From contig JAUSLA010000046.1 of NCBI GenBank assembly GCA_030646565.1, positions 1 through 38,528 of the forward strand: 38,528 nt of DNA, given 5' to 3'. The notes under the pieces are model-generated. The model did not search any database and was not told the origin of the DNA. It worked only from the letters and a program-made list of their open reading frames with translations. This DNA comes from a bacterium. GTDB lineage: Bacteria > Patescibacteriota > Minisyncoccia > Minisyncoccales > RBG-13-42-11. The translations under genes were made by a program, and so were the position numbers. Positions 3,256 through 38,404 of the stretch are shown one piece after another. Numbering within the stretch: the first letter of the stretch is position 1; each line of letters starts with the position of its first letter.

Positions 3256-3299
3256 GTCAAAGAAATAAATTTCTTCTTCACCCCGCGCTTCGCTTGGGT
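3256..3299 (-). repeat. Two-hairpin dispersed repeat copy abutting the htrA start
   Basis: rc ACCCAAGCGAAGCGCGGGGTGAAGAAGAAATTTATTTCTTTGAC, then T-ATG. Confidence 0.75.
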
Positions 3300-3301
3300 T
3301 T

Positions 3302-4195
3302 TTAACGCTTCAAAATATTCTTTGTTTTTAAAATTACTATTTTCGGGGTAAAAAGTAAAAAAATAAGGATCCAGCTTAAAAATACTATTCCCGACATAAG
3401 ATAAGAAACGATAATCCAAACAAATTGAAATAAAAAATTTGTTTTTTTTGCTTTTTTGTCCCGGCCTTTCAATACTCTCTTCTTTTGATACTGGCCGAAG
3501 TCGTATCTAAAGATATTTATTTTTACATTCCCAAAAAAAATATTTAAAATGTTACAAAAAAAATATTTAAAATTAGTTCTCCACAGGCCTTCTTTTTCAA
3601 ATCTTCTTAAAAACAAAGGCAGTTTGACTCCTTTTAAAAAACCAAATCTGCCAACCTTAGCCGCCCGGCGGACAAAGTCATGGTCTTCGGCTATCTTAAT
3701 GTTTTCGTCAAAACCCCCAACGGCTTGAAAGATTTCCCTTTTAACCAAAATTAAACTGGCGGCATAAGGAAAAACTCCCTGCAGGAATCTGACAGGCCAA
3801 TTATATAAAAGATTATAAAAAAATTGGGGGTGAATAGCTTTGGGCGCCCACTCTATGCCTATGGGTATATGGCCGCAACCGGAAACATCTAAATTTCTAT
3901 CGTTAAATTCTTGCAAGACTTTCTTTAAAAAATTATCGGACAAAAGGGTTTCTGCGTCCAAAAATAAAAATAAATCACCTTGGGCAGCTGCTGCTCCCTG
4001 ATTTCTGCCTTTTGCCGGCAGCCCTCCGTCAACTATTTTACATCCGTATTTTCGGGCTACATCCCTTGTTCTGTCTTTAGAATAGGCGTCTGAAACAACT
4101 ATCTCAAAGTCCTTAAAATTCTGCTTTTTTATGGAGTCAAGCAATAAAGACAGGTACGCTTCTTCGTTTAAGGTTGGAATAATAATACTAAGCAT
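3302..4195 (-). CDS. Glycosyltransferase family 2
   Basis: MLSIIIPTLNEE, DAYSKDRT, GRNQGA, FLFLDAE, GGFDE..EDHDF motifs. Confidence 0.9.
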   Translation of the reverse strand: MLSIIIPTLNEEAYLSLLLDSIKKQNFKDFEIVVSDAYSKDRTRDVARKYGCKIVDGGLPAKGRNQGAAAAQGDLFLFLDAETLLSDNFLKKVLQEFNDRNLDVSGCGHIPIGIEWAPKAIHPQFFYNLLYNWPVRFLQGVFPYAASLILVKREIFQAVGGFDENIKIAEDHDFVRRAAKVGRFGFLKGVKLPLFLRRFEKEGLWRTNFKYFFCNILNIFFGNVKINIFRYDFGQYQKKRVLKGRDKKAKKTNFLFQFVWIIVSYLMSGIVFLSWILIFLLFTPKIVILKTKNILKR

Positions 4196-4242
4196 TTTAA
4201 TTATTATTTTAACAAATGGCTGTAAAAAGAAAAGTGGGCCGG

Positions 4243-5771: not shown

Positions 5772-5890
5772 ATCAAGCTTTCGCATAGCGAAAGCGAAGA
5801 TGAAGAAGAAAACGTAGTTTTCTTCGCCTTAAACCAAGCTTTCGCATAGCGAAAGCGAAGGTTTAAGAAGAGGGCGAAGCCCTCTTCGCC
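5772..5890 (+). repeat. Tandem pair of two-hairpin repeats
   Basis: CAAGCTTTCGCATAGCGAAAGCGAAG occurs twice, followed by GAAGAAAAC-GTA-GTTTTCTTC and GAAGAGGGC-GAA-GCCCTCTTC; the second copy supplies the stop of the glycoside hydrolase gene. Confidence 0.85.
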
Positions 5891-6870
5891 TGAAATAGTT
5901 TTTTTGCTTCATTCCATATTTCGGGCTTATTTTGTTTTTCCTTGAGCCAATATATCCATTCCGCTCCCCATAAATAAAATTCTTTAAATCCGGTTTTCTT
6001 GGCAAATTCAATATTATATTTAAATTGTTCCAGATTCATTGTCTTTTTTTGCTCTTCCAAAGGGCTGTCGTAAAGTAATTTTGGCCCCCAAGGTTCGGCT
6101 TGCAGCTCAACAACAATAACTTCTTTTTTGAATAATTTTTTGATAATTTGGGCTTTGCGCCAGTAAAAGGTTGGGTTGAAAGGATAAGTAATATAAATAC
6201 CCAGTTGATTCACCCAAACTTTTTTATACATTGTTGTGCCAACGATATCTCCAAGCTTGGCGGCTGTGAGCCAAAAGGAACCTTCGCCGCTATCGGAAAT
6301 AACCACCGGCCTTTTCTGATAGTCTAAGGATTTTACTAAATCTATTTCTTTTTTCAAGAAGTTTTTATCAACCCAGGGACATTCGCCGAAAGGAAAAAAT
6401 GGCTCGTTTTCCACTTGCCACATATTTATAGCAGTCGAACCTCTATACCGTACGACTATTTGCTCAATTAGATTTAAAATTCTTTCCTGTTGCTGTTCTT
6501 TATCCAAACCCTTTGCCCAACCGGGAATATGGCATTCCGGCCACCTGGGAGTTTTCATTCCAATAACCAAAAGCAATTTTACTCCTTTATCTTCGGCTGT
6601 CTTTATCTGCCAGTCCAAGTCCTCAAGATTATAATCCCCTTCTTTTGGTTCAATTAAATCCCAATGAACGGCTAATTTTATATTTTTTGCACCCAGGTCG
6701 TCAAGCAGGGCAGAATAATTTTTTTTCCAGTCCAGTCCCAAATCTGCGGCGTGCTTTTGGGAAAAATTAACTCCCCAAGTGATTTCTTTTGCCTTGGGAG
6801 GAGAACCAATAAAAAAATAGCCGGCAAGAATTAAAAATAAGATTAAAATTACAAAAAAAATCTTCCCCAT
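5863..6870 (-). CDS. Membrane-anchored glycoside hydrolase, clan GH-A TIM barrel (beta-galactosidase/GH5-like)
   Basis: HWDLIEPKEGDYN..DLD, WQVENEP (acid/base) and VVELQAEPW (nucleophile) motifs; hydrophobic N-terminus from MGKIFF. Confidence 0.8.
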   Translation of the reverse strand: MGKIFFVILILFLILAGYFFIGSPPKAKEITWGVNFSQKHAADLGLDWKKNYSALLDDLGAKNIKLAVHWDLIEPKEGDYNLEDLDWQIKTAEDKGVKLLLVIGMKTPRWPECHIPGWAKGLDKEQQQERILNLIEQIVVRYRGSTAINMWQVENEPFFPFGECPWVDKNFLKKEIDLVKSLDYQKRPVVISDSGEGSFWLTAAKLGDIVGTTMYKKVWVNQLGIYITYPFNPTFYWRKAQIIKKLFKKEVIVVELQAEPWGPKLLYDSPLEEQKKTMNLEQFKYNIEFAKKTGFKEFYLWGAEWIYWLKEKQNKPEIWNEAKKLFQAKRASPSS

Positions 6871-7784: not shown

Positions 7785-9073
7785 TTTTCAATAACGCGTT
7801 TAATGTTTAACGTCCCCAATTTTTCGCCCTCAATAAAACCCTGCATAGCGGCCTCTGCCAAATATCCCTGCTCCAGCCAGTCAAAAAGCCACTGCTCTAC
7901 ATGACTGGGATCTTCTTGCAACAATCCAAAACCGGATTTCACAAGCCATCTTTTGTTAAATTCTTCTTGAGAGCCAATGGTCGGGGCAATAATTATCGGC
8001 AGACCCAAGGCGGAATAAAAAGAAAGCTCTGACGGTTTTGTCCATAAAATATCCGTTGTTCTTAAGGCCTGATTAAATTTCTGAAAGTATTTTTCAAAAT
8101 CTTTTTCAAAGAGGATTTCAATGTTTTCAGCATTCTTTAATCCTAACCCTTGGATATTCTTTTCAAAATACCTTCTTGTTTTCTCTTTAACTCCAACCGA
8201 AAAAATTATCTTAATTTCTCTTAGCTTTATCTTTCGTTTCAAACATTTCAGGATTTTAACTCCGATTTCTTTTTGGGCGCCGGCCCCGCCAACAGAAAAC
8301 ATTAATGTTAAGGGATGGTTTGACGATGAGGGCAGCTTGCCAAGATATTTTTTGATAAGGAGCTCGTAATAATAGTTATACCTTTGCTTGGGATCAAGAT
8401 TTAAAAGCCTGTGACCCAAATCTTCCTTCAGGATTTCCATATTTTTTCCGCCAATGTTTTCCATGGGCAGAGGATAACCGGTAAAAAATATATTTCGGGG
8501 TTTTATCCCGTAAAGCTGCAATCTCTCGGCAACTCTTTCGGTAGGAACAAAATATTTTATTCTGCTTAATTTTGGATTTAAAGATGCCCAAGCTCGGGCA
8601 ATGTCCGTATCGCAGACAATACAAAAAATATCTCCGGGATATTTAAAATGTTCTGCCATAAAAGCCGGGGTAAAAAAGGTGCTTACCAGAGGAGGACACC
8701 CTTCTTGTCCTGAACCACGTCGAAGGGTTTCAATCAAATCCTTTCCCCAGCCGTTCTCAATCATAGAAAAAATTTGCTTTAACTGAAAATTGGATTCAGA
8801 TAAATCTCTTTTTGGATAAAAGCTAAGTATCTTTTGAAACCGATCAAAGACGAAAAAAACAAACTCGCCGATTAAAGAAATTCTTTTAAAATTTGAAATA
8901 AATTCATAAAATATTCTGGTTGTTTCCCAAATTTTCCTGTCTTTTTCGGGAATGCCAAGATAATCATTGGCATTAATAATTTCTCCGTTAAAAGCTAAAT
9001 ATTTCAAAGGAAAAGCCGTCCTTTGATGTCCGTAGCCCATATTTACCGATATTATCCAAGCTTCTTTTGCCAT
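7772..9073 (-). CDS. GT-B glycosyltransferase, diacylglycerol-glycosyltransferase (UgtP/MGDG synthase)-like
   Basis: MGYGHQRTA, TGYP, GGAG, TKPSELS, GLPIII..GSQEEFN motifs. Confidence 0.7.
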   Translation of the reverse strand: MAKEAWIISVNMGYGHQRTAFPLKYLAFNGEIINANDYLGIPEKDRKIWETTRIFYEFISNFKRISLIGEFVFFVFDRFQKILSFYPKRDLSESNFQLKQIFSMIENGWGKDLIETLRRGSGQEGCPPLVSTFFTPAFMAEHFKYPGDIFCIVCDTDIARAWASLNPKLSRIKYFVPTERVAERLQLYGIKPRNIFFTGYPLPMENIGGKNMEILKEDLGHRLLNLDPKQRYNYYYELLIKKYLGKLPSSSNHPLTLMFSVGGAGAQKEIGVKILKCLKRKIKLREIKIIFSVGVKEKTRRYFEKNIQGLGLKNAENIEILFEKDFEKYFQKFNQALRTTDILWTKPSELSFYSALGLPIIIAPTIGSQEEFNKRWLVKSGFGLLQEDPSHVEQWLFDWLEQGYLAEAAMQGFIEGEKLGTLNIKRVIEKCSG

Positions 9074-9075
9074 TT

Positions 9076-9176
9076 ACCGAGTTCCGCGAAGCGCGAAGAA
9101 CGTTCGTTCTTCTTCCACCCTTCGCTACGCTCGGGTGCGGGACGAAGGTGAAGACGAGGACGAAGTTCTCGTCGCC
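9076..9176 (+). repeat. Nested two-hairpin repeats
   Basis: Outer ACCGAGTTCCGCGAAGC...GGGACGAAGGTGAAGACGAGGAC-GAA-GTTCTCGTCGCC with an inverted copy at about 9093-9136. Confidence 0.85.
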
Positions 9177-9195
9177 TTTCTATTTTAGCAGAATT

Positions 9196-10782
9196 TTAGT
9201 ATTTCAGAAACTTTAGTTTTTGGCTTTTTTGGAGCCGCCAAAATATAAACCCAAGAATGAAATAAGAAATTAAAAGAAATCCCCAATGAACGTTTGCCAG
9301 ATGCAGAGCGGCGTAGGGAATTTTGGAGAAAAAATCAATTACTTTTACAATATAGGTTAAGGAAAACCAGACGGGCACAGAAAAAATAATCCCCAATGGC
9401 TGAAAAACCATTCCCGTAAAACCGAAAAGAAAAATCAAAATGGTGACTGGCGCCAAAAAAGGAACAATCAGAATGTTAGCAACAGGAGAAAGCAAAGAAA
9501 TGAAGCCAAAATTATAAATTAAAATCGGAATAGTAAAAATTTGAGCTGATAGGGTAGCCGCTAAGGTTGCCCTTAAAGGGAAAATTTTTGGATTGGGAAG
9601 ATATTTAAGGAAACTTGTGATAGTTGGCTGCCAATAAATAATTCCTAAAATTGCCAGAAAAGAAAGCTGAAAACCAATATCCAATCTCAATAAAAGAGGA
9701 TTTATCAGCAGCATTAAAAAAGCGGCGAAAATAACTGCCCGGGAAGCGGATGATAATCTGCCAAAATATTGCGCCGCGAGCACAATGCCGGCCATAATTC
9801 CCGCCCTTACTGCCGAAGCCGGAGCGCCTATCATTAAAATATATAAAGCGAGCAATAGCGCGGCAAGATAAAAGGCCTGCTGCCGCCACAAGCCCAAAGA
9901 AAGCAGAAAAACCAAAATTAGAGAGGCAATAATCGTAATGTTCATTCCGGAGACCGCCGCAATGTGCCTGGTGCCGGTAAGATTTAGCTTGTCTTTCCAT
10001 TCCTTGGAAATGTTATTTTCATCGCCAAAAACTAAGGCCTCCAATAGCCCTTCCTGGGGAGGCGAAATAAAAGCGCTTGCAACTTCTTGAAACTTCTTTT
10101 TAAAATTTAAAACATTCGCATATATTATTGATATCGGATATTGATAATTTCCTCTCTCTAACGGTTCAATTTTCGGCCAACTCATAACCGAATAAATTCC
10201 GTCTTTTTTAAGATAATTTCTATAGTCGAAGAACGTTCGTTCTTCTTCATCCTTCGCTACGCTCGGGTAATTGAAACTTTGGCTTCGACTGAGCTCAGCC
10301 GAATGTCCAAATATAGGCGGGGATTCCAATTTTCCTGTAATTCTTAATTTGTCTCCATATTGATATTCCGGATATAGAGAAGCTGTCACTAAAATCTTTC
10401 CATTGACGCTATCTGAACCTTCCTCATAGTTTTCAATATCTTCTGGTTGAATTATTAATCCCACGCTCTTTCCTCTGATATCCGGCTCGGCTATTACAAT
10501 CCCGACCAAGCTAATAATTTCTTCTTTATTGTTTAGCCAGCTTAATTCAGAATTAATGCTTTGGGCTTCGAATGTCTGATAACGCCAAATTCCGGCCAAA
10601 AAAAATAACAAACAGAATCCAGTAACTGTTATTCTTTTATATCTCCATAAAACAGAAATTAGCAAGACCCCAAAAATTAAAAAACCCAGCATTGCAAGCT
10701 GAGAAATACGCATAAGTGGACCGAGAAATACGCCTCCGACAAAAGATAAACAGAGGCATATTAATATTTTTGAATAAGACAT
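9196..10782 (-). CDS. comEC: ComEC/Rec2 competence DNA channel (OB plus Competence domains, no beta-lactamase domain)
   Basis: GTRHIAAVSGMN, ASAVRAGIM, GFQLSFLA motifs; repeat-derived insertions near 10224-10305. Confidence 0.92.
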   Translation of the reverse strand: MSYSKILICLCLSFVGGVFLGPLMRISQLAMLGFLIFGVLLISVLWRYKRITVTGFCLLFFLAGIWRYQTFEAQSINSELSWLNNKEEIISLVGIVIAEPDIRGKSVGLIIQPEDIENYEEGSDSVNGKILVTASLYPEYQYGDKLRITGKLESPPIFGHSAELSRSQSFNYPSVAKDEEERTFFDYRNYLKKDGIYSVMSWPKIEPLERGNYQYPISIIYANVLNFKKKFQEVASAFISPPQEGLLEALVFGDENNISKEWKDKLNLTGTRHIAAVSGMNITIIASLILVFLLSLGLWRQQAFYLAALLLALYILMIGAPASAVRAGIMAGIVLAAQYFGRLSSASRAVIFAAFLMLLINPLLLRLDIGFQLSFLAILGIIYWQPTITSFLKYLPNPKIFPLRATLAATLSAQIFTIPILIYNFGFISLLSPVANILIVPFLAPVTILIFLFGFTGMVFQPLGIIFSVPVWFSLTYIVKVIDFFSKIPYAALHLANVHWGFLLISYFILGFIFWRLQKSQKLKFLKY

Positions 10783-10783
10783 A

Positions 10784-10888
10784 GTCAAAGAGAACTTCGT
10801 TCACCCGAGCCACAGGCGACGAGTGGAAAAGAACACGAATGTGTTCTTTGACTCTTCTTCACTTTCGTCCGCCAGAGGCGGACTCAGT
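10784..10888 (-). repeat. Nested two-hairpin repeats abutting the comEC start
   Basis: Outer copy on minus strand, with an inner plus-strand copy at 10803-10852 inserted in GTTC|TCTT. Confidence 0.85.
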
Positions 10889-10890
10889 AA

Positions 10891-13331: not shown

Positions 13332-13946
13332 TTATACTTGCGATAAATAGCATTCTTCTTTCTTTTTCATTATTTTTTCTTCTTTTTCGCTCCTTTCGTG
13401 GTCATATCCAAAAAGGTGTAAAGTCCCGTGGATTAAAACCTTGGCTAATTCTTTATTATACGTTAAACCGAATTTTTTTGCATTTTTTCTAACCTCTCTC
13501 AAGCAAATTACTATTTCGCCCAATCCCTGACCCGAGCGAAGCGAAGGGTGAGCAACCTTAAACTTTTCCCACCCGCTTGGCGGGTACCCGACTTTTGATT
13601 CCGGAAAAGCCAAAACGTCTGTCGCCCGATTTTTATTTCTGTATTTTTTATTCAACTCCCTTATTCTTCCCTGTCCCACCAAAGCGATGGATAAACCAGC
13701 TTTTTCTTTTACCGAGTCCCGCACCGAGCCTCCAAGGGAAGCGAAGGTGGAAAAGAGGACGCAGTCCTCTTTGACGGGACGAGTCGAAGAGCATCCGCTC
13801 TTCTCCACCCTTCGCCTATCGGCTCGGGTAGCTGGAGACGAAAACTTAGTCCTCGTCGCCTTTTCTCCCTTCAATACAATGTTTGTAGTTTTTTCCAAAA
13901 ATTTTTCATCAACGATATTAGTAGTTAAATTATTAATTTCAATCAT
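13332..13946 (-). CDS. ybeY: rRNA maturation endoribonuclease YbeY with repeat-derived insertions
   Basis: LNKKYRNKNRATDVLAFP, LGEIVIC and IHGTLHLFGYDH motifs. Confidence 0.93.
   Translation of the reverse strand: MIEINNLTTNIVDEKFLEKTTNIVLKGEKATRTKFSSPATRADRRRVEKSGCSSTRPVKEDCVLFSTFASLGGSVRDSVKEKAGLSIALVGQGRIRELNKKYRNKNRATDVLAFPESKVGYPPSGWEKFKVAHPSLRSGQGLGEIVICLREVRKNAKKFGLTYNKELAKVLIHGTLHLFGYDHERSEKEEKIMKKKEECYLSQV
13711..13860. repeat. Triple nested repeat, a 150-nt in-frame insertion in ybeY
   Basis: Outer 13711-13860 (+), inner 13723-13775 (+), inner 13783-13829 (-). Confidence 0.85.
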
Positions 13947-15351: not shown

Positions 15352-15420
15352 TTATTCCAAAAACTGAAAAGTGGAAAGCGCCTAATGAATTATTCCTTCT
15401 GAAATTTTATTTAGAAATCT
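15352..15420 (-). pseudogene. C-terminal remnant of a paralog of the 13951..14673 protein
   Basis: Manual translation ...KISEGIIH*ALSTFQFLE* resembles ILSTFKFLK*. Confidence 0.4.
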
Positions 15421-15425
15421 ATGTA

Positions 15426-15526
15426 GGCGATGAAAACTATGTTTTCATCTTCACCTTCGTCCCGCACCAGAGCATAACAAAGGATGGAAAAAGAACGAAC
15501 GTTCTTCACGCAAAGCGGGACTCGGT
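15426..15526 (-). repeat. Nested two-hairpin repeats overlapping the yqeY 3' end
   Basis: Outer minus-strand copy with a degenerate inner plus-strand copy at about 15466-15509 that supplies the yqeY stop. Confidence 0.8.
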
Positions 15527-16063
15527 TAATAATTCCTTTACGATTTTTGAAACCGAACCGCCATCAGCCCTGCCTTTTATTGTTGGCATCAATTCTGCCA
15601 TTACTTTACCTAAGCGCAGCGAAGGGTGAAGAAGAGATTCATCTCTTCGACTTCCCATATCTTTCATCTCTTTAGCGTTAACTTTATCAATGGCTGCCTG
15701 AACCAATTTTTTCAGCTCTTCCTCTTTGAGCTGCTCGGGCAGGTATTTTTGCAAAATTTCCAATTCTTTTTTTTCTTTTTTAACCGATTCCTGCCTGCCG
15801 CCCTTTTCAAACCCTTCAATCGCCTCTCTTCTTTTTTTGGCTTCGTAAGATATAACTTCTATTATTTCTTCGTCTTGCAACTGACTTTCTTTTTCCAATT
15901 CTTCTGCGGTTAACTCTGATTTATCTCTGCCCAGTTTAAATCTTTTCTCTTTTTCTTTATTTAAAACGGCAGCTAAAAGCTGCCTTAAAACCAGAGCTTC
16001 CAATTCTTTTCTTTCTTTTATGGTTGAATTTAGTTCTTGCTGTATTCTATTTTTTAACCCCAT
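15506..16063 (-). CDS. yqeY: GatB/YqeY domain protein
   Basis: KKRREAIEGF..GR..E..ELEILQKYLPEQL, KDMG..KVM, GRADG; 15-aa repeat insertion at 15608-15652. Confidence 0.92.
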   Translation of the reverse strand: MGLKNRIQQELNSTIKERKELEALVLRQLLAAVLNKEKEKRFKLGRDKSELTAEELEKESQLQDEEIIEVISYEAKKRREAIEGFEKGGRQESVKKEKKELEILQKYLPEQLKEEELKKLVQAAIDKVNAKEMKDMGSRRDESLLHPSLRLGKVMAELMPTIKGRADGGSVSKIVKELLTESRFA

Positions 16064-16295: not shown

Positions 16296-16309
16296 ATTTT
16301 TATTTTTTA

Positions 16310-16353
16310 GGCGATGAACTTCGTTCATCTTCACCCTTCGCTAACGCTCGGTT
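16310..16353 (-). repeat. Two-hairpin repeat copy
   Basis: GGCGATGAAC-TTC-GTTCATCTTCACCCTTCGCTAACGCTCGGTT. Confidence 0.8.
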
Positions 16354-16690
16354 AGGCGAAGGGCAGTTTTGCTCCGCCCATTAAGTGTAAATGCAAATGG
16401 TTTACGGTTTGACCCGCGCCTTTCCCGACGTTAAAGCTCAAGCGATAGCCCGTTTCAGCCACATTTTGCTTTTTGGCTATATTTCTGGCGACTAAGAATA
16501 ATTCTCCTATTAATTCTTTATCTTCCGACTCTAAATTATTTATAGAAGAGATATGTTTTTTCGGCACAATTAAAAGATGAACAGGAGCTTTGGGCTCAAC
16601 ATCTTTAAAAACAACGACTTTATCGTCTTCGTATATTATTTCAGAGGGCACTTCCTTATTAATAATCTTGCAAAAAATACAATCTGCCAC
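16352..16690 (-). CDS. Histidine triad (HIT) nucleotide-binding protein
   Basis: DCIFCKI, HLLIVPKKH and GQTVNHLHLHLMGG motifs. Confidence 0.95.
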   Translation of the reverse strand: MADCIFCKIINKEVPSEIIYEDDKVVVFKDVEPKAPVHLLIVPKKHISSINNLESEDKELIGELFLVARNIAKKQNVAETGYRLSFNVGKGAGQTVNHLHLHLMGGAKLPFA

Positions 16691-16780
16691 AATCGAGTCC
16701 CTCCTGCGTCGGGACGAAGGTTAAAAAGAGTCGAAGAATGTTCATTCTTCTCCGCCCTTCGCTGCGCTCGGGCCTTTGAC
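16691..16780 (+). repeat. Nested two-hairpin repeats
   Basis: Outer AATCGAGTCCC...GGGACGAAGGTT...CTTTGAC with an inverted inner copy at 16730-16773. Confidence 0.8.
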
Positions 16781-19093: not shown

Positions 19094-19696
19094 ATGCTTC
19101 TAATTGCGGGCCTCGGAAATCCCGGGGGGAAATATAAAAACACAAGGCACAATATCGGTTTCCGAGTGGTCGATGAACTTCGTTCATCTTCACACTTCGC
19201 TACTGCTCGTGTCATTGACGAATTTGCAAGGAAAAACAATTTCCCCGATTTTCATTTTGCCAAAAAATATAATGCTGAAATTTCAGAAGGCAATCTGGAT
19301 AATGAAAAATATATTTTAGCCAAACCCCGAACCTTTATGAACAATTCCGGCAGAGCAGTAAAATCCTTAATGAGTACGGCTAAGCCGGACCTTATGGTGA
19401 TTCACGACGATATTGATTTGCCGCTCGGTAAAATCAAAATATCAATCGGCCGCGGTTCGGCGGGACACAAAGGAGTGGAATCAATAATTCAGGCAATAAA
19501 TTCAAAAAATTTTATAAGAATCAGGGTTGGAATCCTTCCCGAAACCGGAAAGCCAAAAAACCCTGAAGATTTTGTTCTTCAAAAATTTCAACAAAATGAA
19601 GAAAAAATCGTAAAAGATACTATTAAAAAGACTATCGAAGCAATCGAGATAATAATGGGGAAGGGGATAGAAAAAGCAATGAACCAGTACAATTAA
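19094..19696 (+). CDS. pth: Peptidyl-tRNA hydrolase with a 15-aa repeat insertion
   Basis: GLGNPG..Y..TRHNIG, KPRTFMNNSG, HDDID, GHKG and RIRVGI motifs. Confidence 0.97.
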   Translation: MLLIAGLGNPGGKYKNTRHNIGFRVVDELRSSSHFATARVIDEFARKNNFPDFHFAKKYNAEISEGNLDNEKYILAKPRTFMNNSGRAVKSLMSTAKPDLMVIHDDIDLPLGKIKISIGRGSAGHKGVESIIQAINSKNFIRIRVGILPETGKPKNPEDFVLQKFQQNEEKIVKDTIKKTIEAIEIIMGKGIEKAMNQYN

Positions 19697-23087: not shown

Positions 23088-25143
23088 AAGTCCAACAAAA
23101 TCAAAAACTATTTCAAGTTATTTGGGCCCGGAGTTTAAGGTTCTTTCTTCCTACGGCCATGTTCGAGATTTACCGAAAGGCGAATTTGGCATTGACACAG
23201 AAAATAACTTTGAACCAAAATATGTTATTCCTCCAAAAGCAAGAAAAACAATTAAACTTTTGAAAGAAGCTGTTGCAAAAGCCGACACAACTATTCTTGC
23301 TACCGACGAAGACAGAGAGGGAGAAGCGATTTCCTGGCATTTGTCTCAGGTCTTAAACCTAAATGGCAAAAAATCGTATCAAAGAATTGTTTTCCATGAA
23401 ATTACGAAATCAGCCATTAAAGAGGCTCTGAAAAATCCAAGAAAAATAGATATGAATATGGTTGACGCCCAGCAGGCAAGGAGGTTTTTAGATAGAATTG
23501 TGGGCTACAAACTTTCTCCATTTTTATGGAAAAAAGTTGCAAGAAAACTATCAGCCGGAAGAGTCCAGTCGGTAGCAGTAAGGTTGGTTGTAGAAAGAGA
23601 AAGAGAAATACAAAAGTTTATTCCGGAAGAATATTGGACAATCATTGCCCAGTTAGAAACCATTGCGAACTCTAAAAACCAGCCGGGAAAGCTGGAGGCT
23701 CTACTGGTGAAAAAAGATGGAAAGGCTATTTCAAAATTGGAAATAAAGAATGAAAAGGAAGCGGAAAATATTCTTGCAGATTTAACCGGAGCTGAATACA
23801 AAATAATAAATATCGAAAAAAAAGAAGTGAAGAAAAATCCTTTGCCGCCTTTCACCACCAGCACTTTACAGCAGGAGGCATGGAAAAGATTTAAATTCCC
23901 GGCAAGGTTTACAATGCAAATAGCCCAGCGGCTTTACGAAAACGGATTAACGACTTATCACAGAACCGACTCTCTAAATCTTTCTGATTTGTCTTTATCT
24001 GCGGCTAAAAAATTTATTATTAAAGATTACGGAAAAGAATACTGGGCGGGAATTTTCAGAAAATATAAAACAAAATCAAAAGGCGCCCAAGAAGCGCATG
24101 AAGCCATCAGGCCGGCTTATCCTGAAAAGACCCCGGACTCTTTAAAACTAGGCGAAAAGGATAAATCCTCTTCTTCAGCCTTCGCTGCGGCTCGGCTCTA
24201 CGATCTGATTTGGCGAAGATTTATCGCCAGCCAAATGAGCCAAGCCGTATTTGACGCTACAGGCGTGGATATTGCCGCCAAGAATTATGCTTTCAGGGCT
24301 AACGGGCAAACTTTAAGGTTTGACGGCTTCCTTAAGATTTATCCAATAAAATTTGAGGAAAATGCGTTGCCTTCCTTGGAAAAAAACGAAACTTTAGAAT
24401 TAGTAAAACTAAGTCCTTTGCAGCATTTCACCCAGCCGCCTCCAAGATTTACCGAGGCCAGTTTGATTAAAATACTTGAAGAAAACGGCATCGGCCGGCC
24501 TTCAACTTATGCTCCAACTCTATCTACTATTCAAGACAGGAACTACATCGAAAAAGACGAGCAAAGAAGATTTAAACCTACTGAAATCGGCTTTACGGTC
24601 AACGATCTTTTGGTAAGCCATTTTCCGCAAATTGTTGATATTAATTTTACAGCCGCTATGGAAGAAGACTTAGACGAAATTGCAGAAGGTAGAGAGAAAA
24701 CCGTTGACGTCCTTAGAAAATTTTATGTTCCCTTTGAAGAAAATCTAAAGAAAAAATATGAGGAGGTTGTAAAAAAAGAAATCATCGCAAAACCGACGGA
24801 TAAAACCTGCCCAAAATGCGGAGCTCCCTTAGTGATAAAGTTTGGCAGATTTGGAGAATTTTACGCTTGCTCAAAATTCCCAACATGCCGATATACCGAG
24901 GCCTTAGAAAAAAATAATTTGGGGATAAAGTGTCCGAAATGTAAAGAAGGAGAGATTGTTGAAAAACGGACTAAAAAAAGAAAAATATTTTATGGCTGTT
25001 CCAATTGGCCGAAATGCGATTTTGCCTTATGGGACAAACCAACCGGAGAACTTTGTCCAAAGTGCCAATCGCTTTTAATCAAAACGAAAAGAGACGAAAC
25101 AAAATGCTCGAACAAAGAATGTAATTTCAAGGTTGAAAAATAA
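23068..25143 (+). CDS. topA: DNA topoisomerase I
   Basis: IVESPTK, DEDREGE, SAGRVQ, TYHRTDS (catalytic Tyr), GIGRPSTY and C4 zinc ribbons. Confidence 0.98.
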   Translation: MRLIIVESPTKSKTISSYLGPEFKVLSSYGHVRDLPKGEFGIDTENNFEPKYVIPPKARKTIKLLKEAVAKADTTILATDEDREGEAISWHLSQVLNLNGKKSYQRIVFHEITKSAIKEALKNPRKIDMNMVDAQQARRFLDRIVGYKLSPFLWKKVARKLSAGRVQSVAVRLVVEREREIQKFIPEEYWTIIAQLETIANSKNQPGKLEALLVKKDGKAISKLEIKNEKEAENILADLTGAEYKIINIEKKEVKKNPLPPFTTSTLQQEAWKRFKFPARFTMQIAQRLYENGLTTYHRTDSLNLSDLSLSAAKKFIIKDYGKEYWAGIFRKYKTKSKGAQEAHEAIRPAYPEKTPDSLKLGEKDKSSSSAFAAARLYDLIWRRFIASQMSQAVFDATGVDIAAKNYAFRANGQTLRFDGFLKIYPIKFEENALPSLEKNETLELVKLSPLQHFTQPPPRFTEASLIKILEENGIGRPSTYAPTLSTIQDRNYIEKDEQRRFKPTEIGFTVNDLLVSHFPQIVDINFTAAMEEDLDEIAEGREKTVDVLRKFYVPFEENLKKKYEEVVKKEIIAKPTDKTCPKCGAPLVIKFGRFGEFYACSKFPTCRYTEALEKNNLGIKCPKCKEGEIVEKRTKKRKIFYGCSNWPKCDFALWDKPTGELCPKCQSLLIKTKRDETKCSNKECNFKVEK

Positions 25144-28736: not shown

Positions 28737-29105
28737 ATGAGAAGAGCTAATGCTCAACTCCGCATTTTTGACGCAAAAGAAAAACTTTTGGAAATTGCGG
28801 CAATAGTAGGCCTTTTAGAAGGAGTATTTATCGGTTTGATTTTTGGCACATACTTTTATGCAAAATATAATGCGGCCGCAAGTTTGGATGGAGGAGCGCT
28901 TTTGGGCGCTGGCATCAGCTTTAGCTTAGCGATGATTTGGACAGCTGTTACTATTTCATGGACAATAAAAAACACCGATTTCGTCTCAAGGTTGAGAATA
29001 AGCGGGACAAGCGCGTTGATAAATTTTACAGCAGCTTGGATAGGATATTTTTTTAGTTCAGCAATAGGCGCCCTAGGAGCCGCTCTTCTCTCAAAGATGT
29101 TTTAG
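28737..29105 (+). CDS. Hypothetical membrane protein
   Basis: AAGGAGGG SD and three hydrophobic segments. Confidence 0.75.
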   Translation: MRRANAQLRIFDAKEKLLEIAAIVGLLEGVFIGLIFGTYFYAKYNAAASLDGGALLGAGISFSLAMIWTAVTISWTIKNTDFVSRLRISGTSALINFTAAWIGYFFSSAIGALGAALLSKMF

Positions 29106-29116
29106 TATATAAAAAT

Positions 29117-29492
29117 AGGCGATGAGGACTGCGTCCTCATCTTCACCTTCGGTAGGCGATGAGGACTCTGCCCTCGTCTTTGTTTTCGTCCACCAGAGGC
29201 GGACTTGATACTTGCTGGCTATTCGTTAAACGAATAGCCAGCTTTTTTATTATGAAATCAATTACCCGAGCCGATAGGCGAAGGGTGGAGAAGAACGAAA
29301 GTTCTTCGATTACCCGAGCCGCAGGCGATGGGTGGAGAAGAACACGAATGTGTTCTTCGACTCATCTTCATCTGCCAAGTCCTGCGTTGCAGGACGCAGG
29401 TGGATCCGAAGAGATAAACCTCTTCTTCCGCTTCAGCTAACGCTTCAGCAAAAGAAAATTTATCTTCTTTGACCATCCCGCTTCGCTCGGTA
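29117..29492. repeat. Cluster of at least 7 tandem or nested two-hairpin repeats around a terminator
   Basis: Copies at about 29118, 29155, 29264 and 29312, plus a multiply nested block at 29362-29492. Confidence 0.85.
29214..29248 (+). terminator. Intrinsic terminator
   Basis: GCTGGCTATTCGT-TAA-ACGAATAGCCAGC followed by TTTTTT. Confidence 0.8.
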
Positions 29493-34529: not shown

Positions 34530-34572
34530 ACCTTGTTTTCTATCGTAAACTAAAAATAACTTAAAATCAACT

Positions 34573-34687
34573 ATCAAGTTCCGCAAAGCGGAACGCAGAT
34601 GAAGATGAGGACGCAGTCCTCATCGCCTACCGCTATCAAGTTCCGCAAAGCGTGACGAAGGTGGAAAAGAAAAACATTTCTTTGACT
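34573..34687 (+). repeat. Tandem pair of two-hairpin repeats abutting the murA start
   Basis: ATCAAGTTCCGCAAAGCG twice; GATGAGGAC-GCA-GTCCTCATC; ends CTTTGACT-ATG. Confidence 0.85.
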
Positions 34688-35947
34688 ATGCCAGATAAAT
34701 TTTTAATAAAAGGGGGTGTTCCTCTCGTGGGGGAAGTAGAAATTTCGGGATACAAAAATTCAGCCGGCGCCTGTTTGGCGGCTACTTTGCTATCTGAAAA
34801 TCCTTCGGTTATTGATAATTTGCCGCTCTGTTCGGATGTTTTAGATCAAATTGAAATTTTGAAAGAAATGGGCGCCAGTATTGAATGGCAAGGAGAAAAA
34901 AGGGTTAAAATAAGCCCTAAAAACATTGACCCAGAAAAAATTCCCGTTAATCTTTTTGAAAAAATACGTGTTTCTATCCTGCTGGTAGGGCCTTTATTGG
35001 CAAGATTTAGAAAGCTTAAAATCCCCCATCCCGGCGGAGATAAAATTGGCTTAAGGCCGATTAACACCCTTCTTGAGGCCCTAAAAGAATTTGGCGTTAA
35101 AGTTGAAGAGAAAAAAGGTTTTTATTGTTTGGAAACGCCGGAAAATCTTGTCGGCAAAAGAATTGTTTTAAAAGAATTTTCTGTAAGCGCAACTGAAATT
35201 ATTATGATGCTGGCCGCCCTTGCCGAAGGCGAAACAAAAATTGAATTGGCGGCCGCCGAACCGCAAGTTCAGGATTTGGGTAATTTATTGATAAAAATGG
35301 GGCTAAAAGTGGAAGGAATAGGCGCCCATACTATTTTAATTAATGGGCAAGGGAAATTAAACGGGGCAGAATTTGCAATTTCCCCAGACCTTTTGGAAGT
35401 CGGCACGTTTTTAATCGGCTTTGCCGTTACTGGCGGCCAAGGAAAAATAAAAAACGTTAATCCCGAGCATCTAATAATGTTTTTGGGGAAAATGAAAGAA
35501 ATCGGAGTAGATTTTGAATTATCCGAAAAAGAAATTTTAGTTAGGCCTTGTTCAGAGTTTCGGCCGACAAAAATCCAGGTCCTGCCTTTTCCCGGGTTTC
35601 CAACCGATCTCCAGCCTCAAACCTCAATTTTAGCGACCCAAGCCAAAGGAAGATCTTTAATCCACGATCCCTTATACGAAAACCGCTTTCAGCACTTGCA
35701 CGAATTAAGAAAAATGGGGGCGGATATTGAAATTACCGACCCTCACCGAGCTTTAATTTTCGGCAAAACAGAACTGCAAGGAGCAAAAGTGGACGGGTCA
35801 GACATTAGGGCGGGAGCGGCTTTAATTTTAGCCGGCCTTCTGGCTAAAGGAGAAACTGTTGTCAGCAACGCCCACCTGATTGACAGGGGATACGAAAGAT
35901 TGGAAGAAAAATTGAAAACGCTCGGCGCAAAAATAGAAAGAATTTAG
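34688..35947 (+). CDS. murA: UDP-N-acetylglucosamine 1-carboxyvinyltransferase (Cys-to-Asp type)
   Basis: SGYKNS, PGGDKIGLRP, FPGFPTDLQ, YENRF, DIRAG and IDRGYE motifs. Confidence 0.96.
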   Translation: MPDKFLIKGGVPLVGEVEISGYKNSAGACLAATLLSENPSVIDNLPLCSDVLDQIEILKEMGASIEWQGEKRVKISPKNIDPEKIPVNLFEKIRVSILLVGPLLARFRKLKIPHPGGDKIGLRPINTLLEALKEFGVKVEEKKGFYCLETPENLVGKRIVLKEFSVSATEIIMMLAALAEGETKIELAAAEPQVQDLGNLLIKMGLKVEGIGAHTILINGQGKLNGAEFAISPDLLEVGTFLIGFAVTGGQGKIKNVNPEHLIMFLGKMKEIGVDFELSEKEILVRPCSEFRPTKIQVLPFPGFPTDLQPQTSILATQAKGRSLIHDPLYENRFQHLHELRKMGADIEITDPHRALIFGKTELQGAKVDGSDIRAGAALILAGLLAKGETVVSNAHLIDRGYERLEEKLKTLGAKIERI

Positions 35948-36525
35948 CTTTTAGCCAAGTTCAGGGCTTTGAGATTCAATTCCAGATATTTTTCTGGGAT
36001 TATTTTTTTGATGGCAAAAATTAGCGCGTCTTCTTCTAACGGAAGAATTTTTTTGAAAACAGATACGCCTAAAAGATAAATTCCAGCAACCACATCCGTA
36101 GCAACCGCCTTCCGGCAAATTTCGCTTGCTGGAATTAAATTAACATCTTTACTTATTTTTCTCAAAGAAGTGAGAATTTCTTCGGCAGTCAAAGCTTTTG
36201 CAAGGGGAATCGGTATAATGTGTTGATTCAACAAAAATTTTGTTTTTGTGCTTGCAAAATATCCTGCCCGAAGCGCTTCCTGCGATTCCAAGGCAATTAC
36301 TAAATCTGCTCTTTGGGCAGAAACCAGCGGTGAAAAGATTTTTTCGCCAAACCTGATATGAACCTCTACGGACCCTCCCCTTTGGGCTAACCCGTGAAGC
36401 TCGGAAGTCCTTACTTCATAGCCATTTAACAAAGCGGCCTCGGCAACAATTTGCAGCATAGTTAAAAGCCCTTGGCCTCCAACCCCAACAATAACTATAT
36501 TAAACTCCTTAATTTTGTTCGTCAT
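35944..36525 (-). CDS. iorB: Indolepyruvate:ferredoxin oxidoreductase beta subunit
   Basis: GVGGQG, SELHGLAQRGGSV..H.R motifs; downstream of iorA. Confidence 0.9.
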   Translation of the reverse strand: MTNKIKEFNIVIVGVGGQGLLTMLQIVAEAALLNGYEVRTSELHGLAQRGGSVEVHIRFGEKIFSPLVSAQRADLVIALESQEALRAGYFASTKTKFLLNQHIIPIPLAKALTAEEILTSLRKISKDVNLIPASEICRKAVATDVVAGIYLLGVSVFKKILPLEEDALIFAIKKIIPEKYLELNLKALNLAKS

Positions 36526-36527
36526 AT

Positions 36528-36626
36528 ACCAAGTCCTGCAAAGCAGGACGCAGGTGAAAAAGAGTCAAAGAACGTTCGTTCTTTTCCACCCTTCGCTTCG
36601 CTCGGGTGAACGAAGTTCTCTTTGAC
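36528..36626 (+). repeat. Nested two-hairpin repeats between iorA and iorB
   Basis: Outer plus-strand copy with an inverted inner copy at 36564-36607 inserted in AAAGA|GAAC. Confidence 0.88.
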
Positions 36627-38404
36627 TATTTTAAACTCTTTGCGAAAAGAACACACATTCTGCGAGCAATAATCACCGACACTTCTTCTTTCTCCAAAAA
36701 TTCTTTTATTGCGCTTACAAATTCTTCTTGTTTTATCGGGTCAATTACCTTTAGATTTTTTACGCCGCAAGCCCGCACTATATCTTCAATAATTATTGCC
36801 GGCTGGCAACCGTCGCCTTTCGCGGAAAAATCCGGATCAGTAAAACCAAATTTATATTCTGAATTAATTTTTGTTGCCATAGCGGGATTTGGCTGATGGC
36901 CAGTCATCGCTGTTGTCTGGTTATCTAAAATAATAATGAGAGGATTTGATTTATTAAAAATCGTATTAATTAAGGCTGGAATTCCTGCGTGTAAAAAAGT
37001 TGAATCGCCGATAAAGGTAATTAATTTCTGCGAATCGGCTTGCCCTGAGCCGAGACGAAGGGCTTTTTTAATGCCGTGGGCAATGCCAATTGAAGAGCCC
37101 ATGCAAGACAAATAATCTTGCATGCCAATAGCCGGCGTTCCAAACAGCATATAGCAACCGATATCTCCGCCAAAAATGACTTTTGCAGGATCGACAGATT
37201 TTTTGATAGCAGAAACTACCGACCAATAAGAACAGCCGGGACAGAACTGGGGGGACCTCTGCGGAATTTTCGATTTCCAATTTCCAATTACGCAAGCAGT
37301 AGCGAAGCGTGGAGATGAACGAAAGTTCATCGACTTCAATTTATAATTTGTAAATTTAGCTATGGCCGATATAATTATTTCTGGTTTCAATTCTCCGATT
37401 TCGGGCAGTAATTTTTTGCCTACAACTTCTAATTTGCAGTTTGCCTCTTTTGCCAATCTCGCAACTTCATTTTCTAAATATGGCTCTAGTTCCTCAACTA
37501 TTAAAACTTTTTTGAGTCCTCTTAAAAAAGTTTTTATTTTTTGCTCCGGCAAAGGATAAAAAAATCCTAATTTTAAGATCGGTAAATCTAGATCAAGTTC
37601 TTTCAACGCCTCTTTAACGTTGAGATAGGAAACTCCCGAAGTAATAATCCCCGCCTTTTTATTAATGGAGGTCCGACCTCCATCAATTAGATTGACGGAA
37701 GAGTTTTCCGCAAATGCTCTAATTTTTTCAATTTTTTCCAATAACTCTTTCTTCATTTCCAAAACCCTCGGCGGCAGAGTAACAAATTGCTGCGGATTTT
37801 TTATAAACTCTCCCGCTACTAGGTTAAGTTGCGCAATTTTGCCCAATTGGACTGGCATACGCTGATGATTAACTCTGGTGGTTGTTCTAAGTATTATTGG
37901 AATTTTAAATTTTTCAGAAATTTGAAAAGCTAATTTTAAAAAATCTTTGCACTCTTGCGGATCGGCTGGCTCTAATATCGGAATGTGGGCAAGATTAGCA
38001 AACCCCCTGCTGTTTTCTTCCGATTGAGCGGAACTATGGCAAGACGGATCATCGGCAACAACAATCACTGTCGGACCCTTTGTTCCCGTATAAACAAAAG
38101 GCATTAAAGCGTCCAGGCAAACATTCACGCCAAAATTTTTCATTGCTACCAATGTTTTCAATCCGGAAAAAGAAGCTCCAATAGCCGCCTCCAAAGCTGT
38201 TTTTTCATTTACCGAAAATTCAAAATACTCTTTATATTCCTTGTCTTGGGATAGTTTAAAAAATGTATTTCCTATTTCCGAAGCCGGAGTGCCGGGATAC
38301 GTGGAAACAAATTCAACTCCCAATTCTAAAGCCCCCCGAACAATAGCTTCGTTGCCAAGTAGAATGATTTTTTTTCCGGGTTTGTCCAATAAAATATCTT
38401 TCAC
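36626..38404 (-). CDS. iorA: Indolepyruvate:ferredoxin oxidoreductase alpha subunit
   Basis: LLGNEAIVRGA, YPGTPASE, NEKTALE, FCPGC, GDIGCY, GDSTFLHAG and DNQTTAMTGHQ; no C-terminal ferredoxin motif. Confidence 0.93.
   Translation of the reverse strand: MKDILLDKPGKKIILLGNEAIVRGALELGVEFVSTYPGTPASEIGNTFFKLSQDKEYKEYFEFSVNEKTALEAAIGASFSGLKTLVAMKNFGVNVCLDALMPFVYTGTKGPTVIVVADDPSCHSSAQSEENSRGFANLAHIPILEPADPQECKDFLKLAFQISEKFKIPIILRTTTRVNHQRMPVQLGKIAQLNLVAGEFIKNPQQFVTLPPRVLEMKKELLEKIEKIRAFAENSSVNLIDGGRTSINKKAGIITSGVSYLNVKEALKELDLDLPILKLGFFYPLPEQKIKTFLRGLKKVLIVEELEPYLENEVARLAKEANCKLEVVGKKLLPEIGELKPEIIISAIAKFTNYKLKSMNFRSSPRFATACVIGNWKSKIPQRSPQFCPGCSYWSVVSAIKKSVDPAKVIFGGDIGCYMLFGTPAIGMQDYLSCMGSSIGIAHGIKKALRLGSGQADSQKLITFIGDSTFLHAGIPALINTIFNKSNPLIIILDNQTTAMTGHQPNPAMATKINSEYKFGFTDPDFSAKGDGCQPAIIIEDIVRACGVKNLKVIDPIKQEEFVSAIKEFLEKEEVSVIIARRMCVLFAKSLK

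What the first reader, a model, noticed from the sequence alone, without database searches (positions are those of the whole stretch)
3256..37334. Abundant 45-60 bp two-hairpin mobile repeat conserved in structure rather than sequence
Seen: about 30 copies by manual count, in both orientations. Purine-strand architecture is ACCC-GA-G[mini stem-loop]C-GAA-GGGT, a G(A/G)A linker, GA[stem-loop]TC, then G(A/C)C. The outer stem covaries: ACCC/GGGT (36564), ACAC/GTGT (19169), ACGC/GCGT (37290), AGCC/GGCT (24151), GCCC/GGGC (16730), ATC/GAT (5772), AAACC/GGTTT (5831). Stem 2 also changes freely while staying paired: GAAGAAAAC-GTA-GTTTTCTTC, GAAGAGGGC-GAA-GCCCTCTTC, GATGAGGAC-GCA-GTCCTCATC, GATGAAC-GAA-GTTCATC. 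The unpaired GA/GAA positions are nearly constant. Established: C-GNA-G triloops and sheared G-A pairs are exceptionally stable in single-stranded DNA, and HUH (Y1) transposases such as RAYT and IS200/IS605 TnpA recognise ssDNA hairpins. Inference: a non-autonomous element read as folded ssDNA by a nuclease or transposase encoded elsewhere; none is in this window. I cannot confirm it is undescribed.
Basis: partly seen in the sequence, partly recalled or inferred. Interest (0 to 1): 0.88.

Follow-up and report, generated by a model that had tools for sequence, protein, structure and literature searches.

The report
Two-hairpin mobile repeat invading genes
A tiny (45-60 base) two-hairpin DNA repeat has multiplied to about 200 copies in this very small groundwater bacterial genome and sits, in frame, inside many essential genes, much like the palindromic elements known from Rickettsia.

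Summary
A covariance model built from 14 copies finds 23 matches (E<0.001) in the window and at least 147 in the 770 kb genome. A purely structural descriptor finds 216 complete units, against 0-3 in shuffled genomes. Both stems stay paired (97% of cells) while their sequences change, and the unpaired GA/GAA positions are nearly invariant.

Many copies lie in frame inside housekeeping genes: Pth, TopA, SecA, FtsZ, RF, DnaX, GatA, ATP synthase gamma and others. The Pth copy adds 15 residues that are absent from 28 orthologues. The TopA copy is absent from 45 orthologues. A relative's Pth carries a copy at a different site. These are filled and empty sites, so the element is mobile.

The family occurs in 19 of 24 genomes of the same family (Nealsonbacteria-like Patescibacteria). 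Matches per genome range from 0 to 134 across the 40 relatives. It was not found in 150 other genomes of the class.

No Y1/HUH, TnpB or common DDE transposase gene is present in this genome. Y1 genes in relatives do not track copy number.

Best reading: a selfish, non-autonomous, RPE-like element. How it moves is not established. Four literature searches and Rfam gave no prior description. Novelty: a new variant of a known kind.

The parts
3250..3304 (-). Full unit filling the spacer between the stop of a glycosyltransferase ORF (3302) and the probable ATG of the HtrA-like gene (3252-3254).
   Evidence: R1 51.5 bits; sequence; Pfam of flanking ORFs.
5772..5896 (+). Two tandem variant units with an 8-bp first hairpin, lying between two minus-strand genes.
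   Evidence: R1 21.5 and 35.5 bits; DNA fold -15.7 kcal/mol, z -5.5.
9071..9182 (+). Long-stem variant unit whose first hairpin loop is interrupted by a complete unit in the opposite orientation (9086-9141, minus strand).
   Evidence: R1 56.7 bits (inner) and 17.4 bits (outer).
10219..10273 (-). Full unit in frame inside the ComEC ORF, between DUF4131 and the Competence domain.
   Evidence: R1 70.1 bits; Pfam; ORF open 175 and 341 codons on either side.
10770..10890 (-). Composite: an outer unit whose second hairpin is interrupted by a complete unit in the opposite orientation (10798-10858, plus strand).
   Evidence: R1 54.9 bits. The same composite arrangement recurs elsewhere in the genome.
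13525..13598 (+). First-hairpin module only, inside the YbeY ORF.
   Evidence: R1 28.5 bits. The YbeY Pfam match covers 126 residues for 106 profile positions.
13712..13866 (.). Cluster of three units or fragments upstream of YbeY: 13718-13781 (+), 13777-13834 (-), 13825-13866 (+, second hairpin only).
   Evidence: R1 21.3, 65 and 10.8 bits; sequence.
15420..15476 (-). Truncated long-stem variant unit downstream of YqeY.
   Evidence: R1 18.2 bits.
15603..15657 (+). Full unit inside the YqeY ORF, on the opposite strand to the gene.
   Evidence: R1 53.1 bits. The YqeY Pfam match is split into 2 stretches.
16304..16358 (-). Full unit between the HIT-family gene and YqeY, flanked by an identical 7-mer on both sides.
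   Evidence: R1 59.4 bits.
16690..16778 (.). Long-stem first-hairpin module (16690-16730, +) followed by a full unit (16724-16778, -).
   Evidence: R1 69.2 bits.
19163..19217 (-). Full unit in frame inside peptidyl-tRNA hydrolase. It adds 15 residues (26-40).
   Evidence: R1 63.3 bits. The insert is absent from 28 orthologues. AF2 confidence is low only around the insert.
24145..24202 (-). Full unit in frame inside topoisomerase I (Topoisom_bac domain).
   Evidence: R1 49.9 bits; Pfam. A query-only block is absent from 45 orthologues.
29112..29454 (.). Array in a convergent intergenic region: two minus-strand variants (29112-29158, 29150-29210), two tandem full units (29259-29316 and 29307-29367, +), and further variant modules up to 29454.
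   Evidence: R1 25.8, 68.4 and 20.3 bits; 61.6 bits; sequence.
34564..34692 (+). Two tandem long-stem variant units in a divergent intergenic region.
   Evidence: R1 31.8 bits; DNA fold -15.9 kcal/mol, z -5.1.
36527..36625 (+). Composite filling the whole spacer between two POR genes: an outer long-stem unit whose second hairpin is interrupted by a full unit in the opposite orientation (36558-36612, minus strand).
   Evidence: R1 72.3 bits.
37285..37340 (+). Full unit in frame in the 592-aa POR ORF, between the POR_N and TPP_enzyme_C domains.
   Evidence: R1 68.3 bits; Pfam; ORF open 357 and 218 codons on either side.

Best explanation
This is a family of short (about 45-60 nt) selfish, non-autonomous mobile DNA elements.

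Anatomy, read on the purine-rich strand:
- a 4-5 bp outer stem (consensus ACCC/GGGT);
- a GA/GAA internal loop enclosing a mini-hairpin, often GC-GNA-GC;
- a G-R-A linker;
- a 7-9 bp second hairpin that begins GAAGA;
- the ending G-(A/C)-C-T.

The family has multiplied within one family-level clade of Patescibacteria (Nealsonbacteria-like). In this genome it fills intergenic spacers and also sits inside protein-coding genes.

Shown: copies inside genes that persist are the ones that keep the reading frame open, and each adds roughly 15-20 residues. In the one case modelled (Pth), the added residues form a low-confidence loop.

Shown: insertion polymorphism between genomes, high copy number, conservation of structure, and in-frame location.

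Inferred: the hairpins are kept because movement needs them, most simply through recognition of folded single-stranded DNA by an enzyme acting in trans. That enzyme is not encoded in this genome as assembled. I put about 0.3 on an HUH-type enzyme specifically. The stated confidence refers to 'selfish mobile palindromic element tolerated in frame', not to the enzyme.
For: Abundance.
- At least 147 CM matches in the genome.
- 245 nhmmer hits at E<0.01, of which 152 are near full length.
- 194 loci covering 1.14% of the genome.
- 216 structural units against 0-3 in shuffles.

Mobility.
- The Pth insert is present only here among 29 aligned sequences.
- G002 Pth carries an R1-positive copy at a different site.
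- The TopA insert is present only here among 46 sequences.
- Matches per genome range from 0 to 134 across 40 relatives.
- R1 hits lie inside the orthologous gene in 3 metagenome loci.
- Composite and nested copies occur.

Inside genes.
- 52 of 152 copies are spanned by an ORF open for at least 40 codons on both sides.
- 24 copies with at least 100 codons open on both sides lie in 20 ORFs. 18 of those ORFs have Pfam domains around or through the copy.
- Orientation relative to the gene is 26 to 26.
- Copies are open in 3.94 of 6 frames, against 2.95 for random windows.
- The AF2 Pth model has mean pLDDT 91.3, with only residues 31-50 low.

Structure.
-.
- Both strands fold into the two hairpins as DNA.

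Flanks.
- There are no terminal inverted repeats.
- The left flank is conserved (T at -7 in 64 of 68 copies, C at -6 in 50 of 68, often TCAAT before TA) in copies with no detected neighbouring copy.
Against: - No transposase could be tied to the element. PF01797, PF07282, PF01385, PF00665, PF01609 and PF13358 are not found in this genome. There is only an IS256-type fragment on a 1.3 kb contig.
- Y1 genes in relatives do not correlate with copy number.
- No filled/empty pair at the DNA level from a near-identical strain could be read, so the exact ends and any target duplication are unresolved. A copy's own left and right 7-mers are only slightly more alike than cross pairs.
- The recurrent composites may have spread as units rather than arisen by repeated nesting.
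- The '52 of 152' figure is an upper bound. The copy at 3250 is spanned by an ORF but is probably intergenic.
- No orientation bias against GC skew (69 to 51, p=0.12). Such a bias would be expected for lagging-strand single-stranded-DNA transposition.
Confidence: 0.75

Rival explanations
1. The element spreads without a transposase. The hairpins stall replication, and the nascent strand switches template at short homologies: the left flank resembles the element's own right end (TC-N3-T-A/C). This copies one unit into a new site or extends tandem arrays. Templated 'quasi-palindrome correction' between the arms then keeps the stems perfect and mimics covariation.
For: - No transposase found.
- The left flank resembles the right end.
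- A copy's own flanks are slightly more alike than cross pairs (2.01 against 1.71 of 5 positions, permutation p<0.0005; 9 of 128 identical 7-mers).
- 22 clusters of 2-4 units.
- Stems are 96-99% paired while loops vary freely.
Against: - No direct evidence for the process.
- Most copies are single (145 of 167 clusters).
- The flank similarity is weak and partly reflects neighbouring partial copies.
- Spread to hundreds of dispersed sites and across genera is more typical of enzyme-driven transposition.
Confidence: 0.13
2. It is a functional structured motif kept by selection at each site. Possible roles are an RNA or DNA binding site, a terminator or mRNA stabiliser, or a translation signal. 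It would be comparable to domesticated REP sequences.
For: - Strong structural conservation with invariant GA/GAA.
- On the purine strand, G.T mismatches outnumber A.C: 42 to 21 when the three helices are summed.
- T.G at the fifth outer pair in 75 of 119 copies.
- Several intergenic spacers are filled exactly from stop codon to start codon.
Against: - Both orientations are equally common within genes (26 to 26).
- Copies lie inside catalytic domains of at least 18 housekeeping ORFs.
- Copies are absent from orthologous sites in relatives.
- 5 of 24 genomes of the same family and 150 of 150 other genomes of the class have none.
- No Rfam match.
Confidence: 0.09
3. It is a protein-level repeat: a peptide module selected for its function in many proteins.
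For: Recurrent peptides occur in one frame of each orientation (G-[ED]-E-x3-SSSPFAxARV; TRAxAKGEEE...SSP).
Against: - All three frames and both orientations are used.
- Most copies are intergenic.
- The AF2 insert region has low confidence.
- Conservation follows base pairing, not codons.
Confidence: 0.02
4. It is an assembly or binning artefact.
For: Copies lie within 150 nt of 10 of 148 contig ends, so the repeat does break the assembly.
Against: - Contigs of run X1 cover the copies inside genes without differences. X1 may be the source of this DNA, so it is not independent support.
- The family is found in 22 other genomes and in JGI metagenome contigs.
Confidence: 0.01

Closest known systems
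Rickettsia palindromic elements (RPEs)
   Same: Palindromic repeats in a reduced genome that insert in frame into unrelated housekeeping genes and are tolerated in the protein. No transposase is known (RPE facts taken from passages of the review PMC10969869).
   Different: RPEs are about 150 bp and occur in Alphaproteobacteria. This element is 45-60 nt, has two distinct hairpins with a GA/GAA internal loop, and occurs in Patescibacteria. Sequences were not compared: no RPE sequence was available to me.
REP/BIME sequences with RAYT (Y1 HUH) transposases
   Same: Very short, abundant imperfect palindromes whose structure matters more than their sequence. REP/RAYT properties are recalled, not tested here.
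   Different: REPs are extragenic; here 16-34% of copies lie in ORFs. No Y1 gene is found in this genome, Y1 presence in relatives does not correlate, and Y1 genes are not flanked by copies.
IS200/IS605 derivatives (palindrome-associated transposable elements)
   Same: No terminal inverted repeats, a different hairpin near each end, a conserved short left-flank motif, and no clean target duplication. The family's properties are recalled.
   Different: Far smaller than any described derivative known to me. No TnpA or TnpB gene is found in this genome. No strand bias.
Double-hairpin elements (DHEs) of fungal mitochondria
   Same: Small, potentially mobile elements that fold into two hairpins and are found in intergenic regions and inside rRNA genes (passages of PMC10085805).
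   Different: DHEs are organellar and GC-rich and are not reported in that paper's passages as in-frame inserts in protein genes. No sequence comparison was done.
Classical bacterial MITEs (Correia/NEMIS, ERIC, RUP and the like)
   Same: Non-autonomous, abundant, and sometimes in-frame fusions.
   Different: MITEs are defined by terminal inverted repeats and target duplications derived from a parent IS (definition as abbreviated, otherwise recalled). Neither feature is seen here.

Membership tests
RPE-like (in-frame palindromic invaders of genes) | Palindromic repeat present in many copies. | tested here: met
RPE-like (in-frame palindromic invaders of genes) | Inserted in frame within unrelated housekeeping genes, with orthologues lacking the insert. 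| tested here: met
RPE-like (in-frame palindromic invaders of genes) | Sequence homology to one of the described RPE families. | not testable with these tools
   No RPE sequences or models were on hand. Size (45-60 nt against about 150 bp) and host argue against homology.
REP/RAYT system | A RAYT (Y1_Tnp) gene in the genome, typically flanked by REPs. | tested here: not met
   PF01797 is not found in G000 (93% complete), G012 or G014. Four Y1 genes in relatives have no flanking R1 hits.
REP/RAYT system | Extragenic location. | tested here: not met
   24 copies lie deep inside 20 ORFs.
IS200/IS605-derived element | Subterminal hairpins, with no terminal inverted repeats and no target duplication. 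| tested here: inconclusive
   Two hairpins and no inverted ends. There is a weak own-flank similarity but no clean duplication. The exact ends are unresolved.
IS200/IS605-derived element | Insertion 3' of a fixed 4-5 nt target. | tested here: inconclusive
   Left flank: T at -7 and C at -6 in 64 and 50 of 68 copies, often TCAAT. In Pth this flank is host-coded. The motif could instead be part of the element or of a neighbouring fragment.
IS200/IS605-derived element | A cognate TnpA (Y1), with or without TnpB, in the genome or clade, tracking the element. | tested here: not met
Classical MITE | Terminal inverted repeats and a target-site duplication. | tested here: not met
   The two ends are not reverse complements of each other. 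No consistent duplication.
Rfam RNA family | Match at or above a family's gathering score. | tested here: not met
   Only a tRNA in the window. A permissive scan of the densest array gave three matches at E>=0.54.

The most novel reading that the evidence does not exclude
A structured DNA element of only about 50 nt propagates in ultra-small Patescibacteria without any dedicated transposase of a known kind. It would move either by hairpin-driven template switching or by an unrecognised nuclease family. It would also be a recurrent source of new surface loops in essential proteins (SecA, FtsZ, RF, DnaX, TopA, aaRS), that is, a driver of protein evolution in this clade.
Probability: 0.2. Interest if true: 0.8.

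Novelty: new variant of a known kind. Interest (0 to 1): 0.64.

Why it matters
Patescibacteria have some of the smallest and most streamlined genomes known, yet this one carries about 200 copies of a selfish repeat. At least 24 copies sit inside 20 long open reading frames. These include core replication, translation, secretion and division genes.

This extends the 'selfish DNA inside protein-coding genes' phenomenon, best known from Rickettsia, to a second reduced-genome lineage. It also offers a much smaller and structurally sharper element for studying what is needed for mobility.

Practical consequences:
- The repeat breaks assemblies.
- It inflates ORFs through intergenic copies.
- It adds spurious-looking insertions to marker proteins used for phylogeny.

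Tried and rejected
- **Rfam.** The gathering scan of the window found only a tRNA. The permissive scan of 29050-29480 gave only chance-level matches.
- **Viral contigs.** A 19-nt pattern matched 9 IMG/VR contigs, but only one weak R1 hit (19 bits) followed, so no real copies were found there.
- **RNA evidence.** No RNA holder was listed for the stretch, so retention in mRNA could not be checked.
- **Laid contigs.** X1 may be the source sample. A contig of X3 (another study, roughly 90% alike) bridges the pth region with 49 fewer letters between 18929 and 19214. I treat this only as a hint of an empty site, because the letters could not be read.
- **Near-identical relatives.** None was obtained. 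The best metagenome locus is 75% identical in protein, and no second genome of the genus was among the relatives.
- **Autonomous parent.** Among first-hairpin modules without a second hairpin I saw no module-gene-module arrangement. 45 of 261 lack a perfect second hairpin, and most of these are imperfect copies or chance matches.
- **Bypass or excision idea** (frame-breaking copies inside genes, as for mitochondrial byp elements; recalled). Among 100 copies not spanned by an ORF, only 8 have tight same-strand ORF pairs of at least 80 codons, and these look like neighbouring genes. This was not tested by homology.
- **Strand bias against GC skew.** Not significant.
- **Transposon with a fixed target duplication.** Not supported.
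- **My first strict descriptor.** It missed most copies because it required at least 3 bp in the mini-hairpin. I replaced it with the one used.
- **Literature.** Four searches found no paper linking CPR, Patescibacteria, Parcubacteria or Nealsonbacteria with palindromic, MITE, REP or RPE elements. Passages of a Nealsonbacteria genome preprint mention transposases but no such repeat. Supplements were not seen. Subscription journals are outside the library.


Full report
**Setting**

The window is contig C14 of a 770,429-base, 74-contig genome, 93% complete and about 40% G+C. Its topoisomerase I is closest to records titled Candidatus Nealsonbacteria, Parcubacteria or Patescibacteria, and the DNA occurs in groundwater metagenome runs. 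The genes in the window are ordinary housekeeping genes: HtrA, ComEC, YbeY, YqeY, HIT, Pth, Mfd, DprA, TopA, PurD, a MurA-like gene and the POR subunits.

- With filters off, R1 finds 23 matches at E<0.001 in the window. Thirteen are full-length at 49.9-72.3 bits.
- Long-stem variants and fragments seen by eye bring the window total to about 30.
- In the whole genome R1 reports 147 matches, with only 150 of 1084 candidates scored.
- nhmmer gives 245 hits at E<0.01, of which 152 are near full length. At E<0.001 there are 194 loci covering 1.14% of the genome.
- A descriptor that uses pairing and the GA/GAN loop, with little sequence otherwise, finds 216 complete two-hairpin units. Five order-1 shuffles of the genome give 0-3.

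**Structure against sequence**

- On the 14 seeds, 95.4% of cells pair, 7 of 14 pairs change on both sides, and no shuffle in 500 reaches the observed values.
- On 45 copies from this and five other genomes, 97.4% pair (85.8% shuffled) and 64 cells carry double changes (13.2 shuffled). Slid partners give 39-53% paired. That alignment was fitted to the model.
- On 195 nhmmer hits, stem 2 is Watson-Crick in 1254 of 1302 cells and the four core outer pairs in 533 of 556.
- The unpaired GA and GAA positions are nearly invariant.
- Stem 2 has 42 different 5' arms in 182 copies, and 175 of the 182 have at least 6 paired positions. The first five pairs are conserved in sequence. The distal pairs and the loops vary (GAAT, GAAC, TTTA, GAA, GAAA and others).
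- The mini-hairpin loop is GAA, GTA or GCA in 66 of 152 copies.
- Both strands fold into the two hairpins as DNA. The purine strand is better by 0.8-2 kcal/mol.
- On the purine strand, G.T mismatches outnumber A.C by 42 to 21 over the three helices. The position 5' of the outer stem is T opposite G in 75 of 119 copies. This is a mild hint that the purine strand is the one that folds.

- Of 152 near-full copies, 52 are spanned by a frame open for at least 40 codons on each side. Random windows give 1272 of 2000. This figure is an upper bound, because the element is open in 3.94 of 6 frames on average against 2.95 for random windows, so ORFs run through intergenic copies. The copy at 3250 is an example.
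- With a stricter cut-off of at least 100 codons on each side, 24 copies lie in 20 ORFs.
- Eighteen of those 20 ORFs have Pfam domains around or through the copy: ComEC, TopA, POR; FtsZ, ATP synthase gamma, a P-type ATPase, a peptide chain release factor, an S11 peptidase, a Mur ligase and a class I tRNA synthetase; SecA, a DHH protein, an ABC ATPase, DnaX, UvrC, an FtsQ-like protein, a GatA-type amidase and a 5'-3' exonuclease. Two ORFs had no Pfam match.
- Orientation relative to the gene is 26 to 26, and all three frames occur.

**Filled and empty sites**

- Pth here carries 15 extra residues (26-40) that none of 28 orthologues from relatives has.
- The Pth of G002 has a different insert at another place, and R1 recognises it (42.5 bits).
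- TopA here has a block that all 45 aligned orthologues lack. The net gain is only 9 residues, so either that loop was shorter beforehand or some residues were replaced.
- In three metagenome loci an R1 hit lies inside the orthologue of the 433-residue ORF 16784-18085.
- An AlphaFold model of Pth is confident overall (mean pLDDT 91.3). Only residues 31-50 are low, about 54, with 34-42 under 50. The fold appears to tolerate the insert.

**Distribution**

R1 matches 19 of 24 other genomes of the same family, each from a different or nearly different genus, and 3 of 16 genomes from other families of the order. Matches per genome across these 40 relatives range from 0 to 134. None of 150 further genomes of the class matches at E<=1e-5, though fewer candidates per genome were scored in that run. 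The best copies in other genera score as high as those here (71.9 bits), so the consensus is shared across genera.

**Ends and target**

- The two ends are not inverted repeats of each other.
- The right end is G-(A/C)-C-T.
- The left flank is conserved beyond the outer stem. In the 68 copies with no detected neighbouring copy or hairpin, T at -7 occurs in 64 and C at -6 in 50, commonly as TCAAT before TA.
- In Pth that flank is host-coded: it is the reverse complement of the conserved Ile-Asp codons. This suggests target preference rather than a longer element, but it rests on one case.
- A copy's own left and right 7-mers are slightly more alike than cross pairs, and 9 of 128 are identical. 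There is no clean duplication.
- Copies interrupt other copies at 9071-9182, 10770-10890 and 36527-36625. The last arrangement recurs with near-identical junctions at several places in the genome, so it may spread as a composite.

**Enzyme**

- Y1_Tnp, TnpB domains, rve, DDE_Tnp_1 and DDE_3 are not found in this genome. Only an IS256-type fragment sits on a 1.3 kb contig.
- Y1-like genes of 173-285 residues exist in 20 of the 40 relatives (none in this genome). They are present in 8 of 13 genomes with 10 or more copies and in 8 of 18 with none. They are missing from the three richest genomes.
- Four Y1 genes inspected have no R1 copies nearby.
- Orientation does not follow GC skew (69 to 51, p=0.12).
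- The HUH idea therefore remains a lead, not a finding.

**Interpretation**

The data fit a selfish, non-autonomous element that behaves like the Rickettsia palindromic elements described in passages of PMC10969869. It is a third of their size and has a two-hairpin anatomy reminiscent of the mitochondrial double-hairpin elements described in passages of PMC10085805.

Two explanations remain open for why the stems stay paired:
- selection on mobility, if a folded strand is what gets recognised;
- templated correction between the arms of a palindrome (recalled concept, not tested).

A site-by-site cellular function is unlikely, given the equal orientations, the positions inside catalytic domains and the patchy presence among close relatives.

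**Novelty**

Rfam has no such family. Four full-text searches found no description in CPR or Patescibacteria, and a Nealsonbacteria genome preprint does not mention it in the passages I read. I could not see supplements, REP/MITE databases or subscription journals. I rate it a new variant of a known kind.

Noticed in passing
window 25169-28320: Downstream of a tRNA (25169-25252) lie several exact or near-exact direct repeats unrelated to the hairpin element: a 37-nt repeat at 27160 and 28277, a 29-nt repeat at 25493 and 28213, and a 58-nt repeat at 25295 and 27286. Contigs of runs X2 and X3 join 25342 to 27340, skipping 1997 nt that hold the PurD gene. The segment looks variable or duplicated between populations.
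   Followed up: partly
window 36626-38404: One 592-aa ORF holds both POR_N (alpha-type) and TPP_enzyme_C (beta-type) domains, with a hairpin element exactly between them. The element may have fused two subunit genes, or it may sit in a natural linker.
   Followed up: no
L037 1937-2641; L038 1826-2539: Relatives carry 234-237 aa Y1_Tnp-like genes (weak PF01797 matches of 26-32 bits) that are not flanked by the element. Their own target repeats, if any, are unknown.
   Followed up: partly
L013, L030, L031 (Pth); L045, L119 (TopA): Other orthologues carry their own lineage-specific inserts of 10-19 residues at other positions. Whether these derive from the same or another repeat family was not tested.
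   Followed up: no
window about 18000-19100: GC skew and gene strand both switch here, with minus-strand genes to the left and plus-strand genes to the right. This could be a replication origin or only an operon boundary.
   Followed up: no
G000 contigs C11, C68, C30, C13: Short contigs with deviant G+C (0.68, 0.52, 0.50) and an IS256-type transposase fragment on C13. These may be contamination of the bin.
   Followed up: no
window 3250-3304, 9071-9182, 36527-36625: Several intergenic spacers are filled by elements from the upstream stop codon to the downstream start codon. At 3252-3254 the probable ATG overlaps the element's right end. ORF callers will over-extend genes through such copies.
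   Followed up: partly
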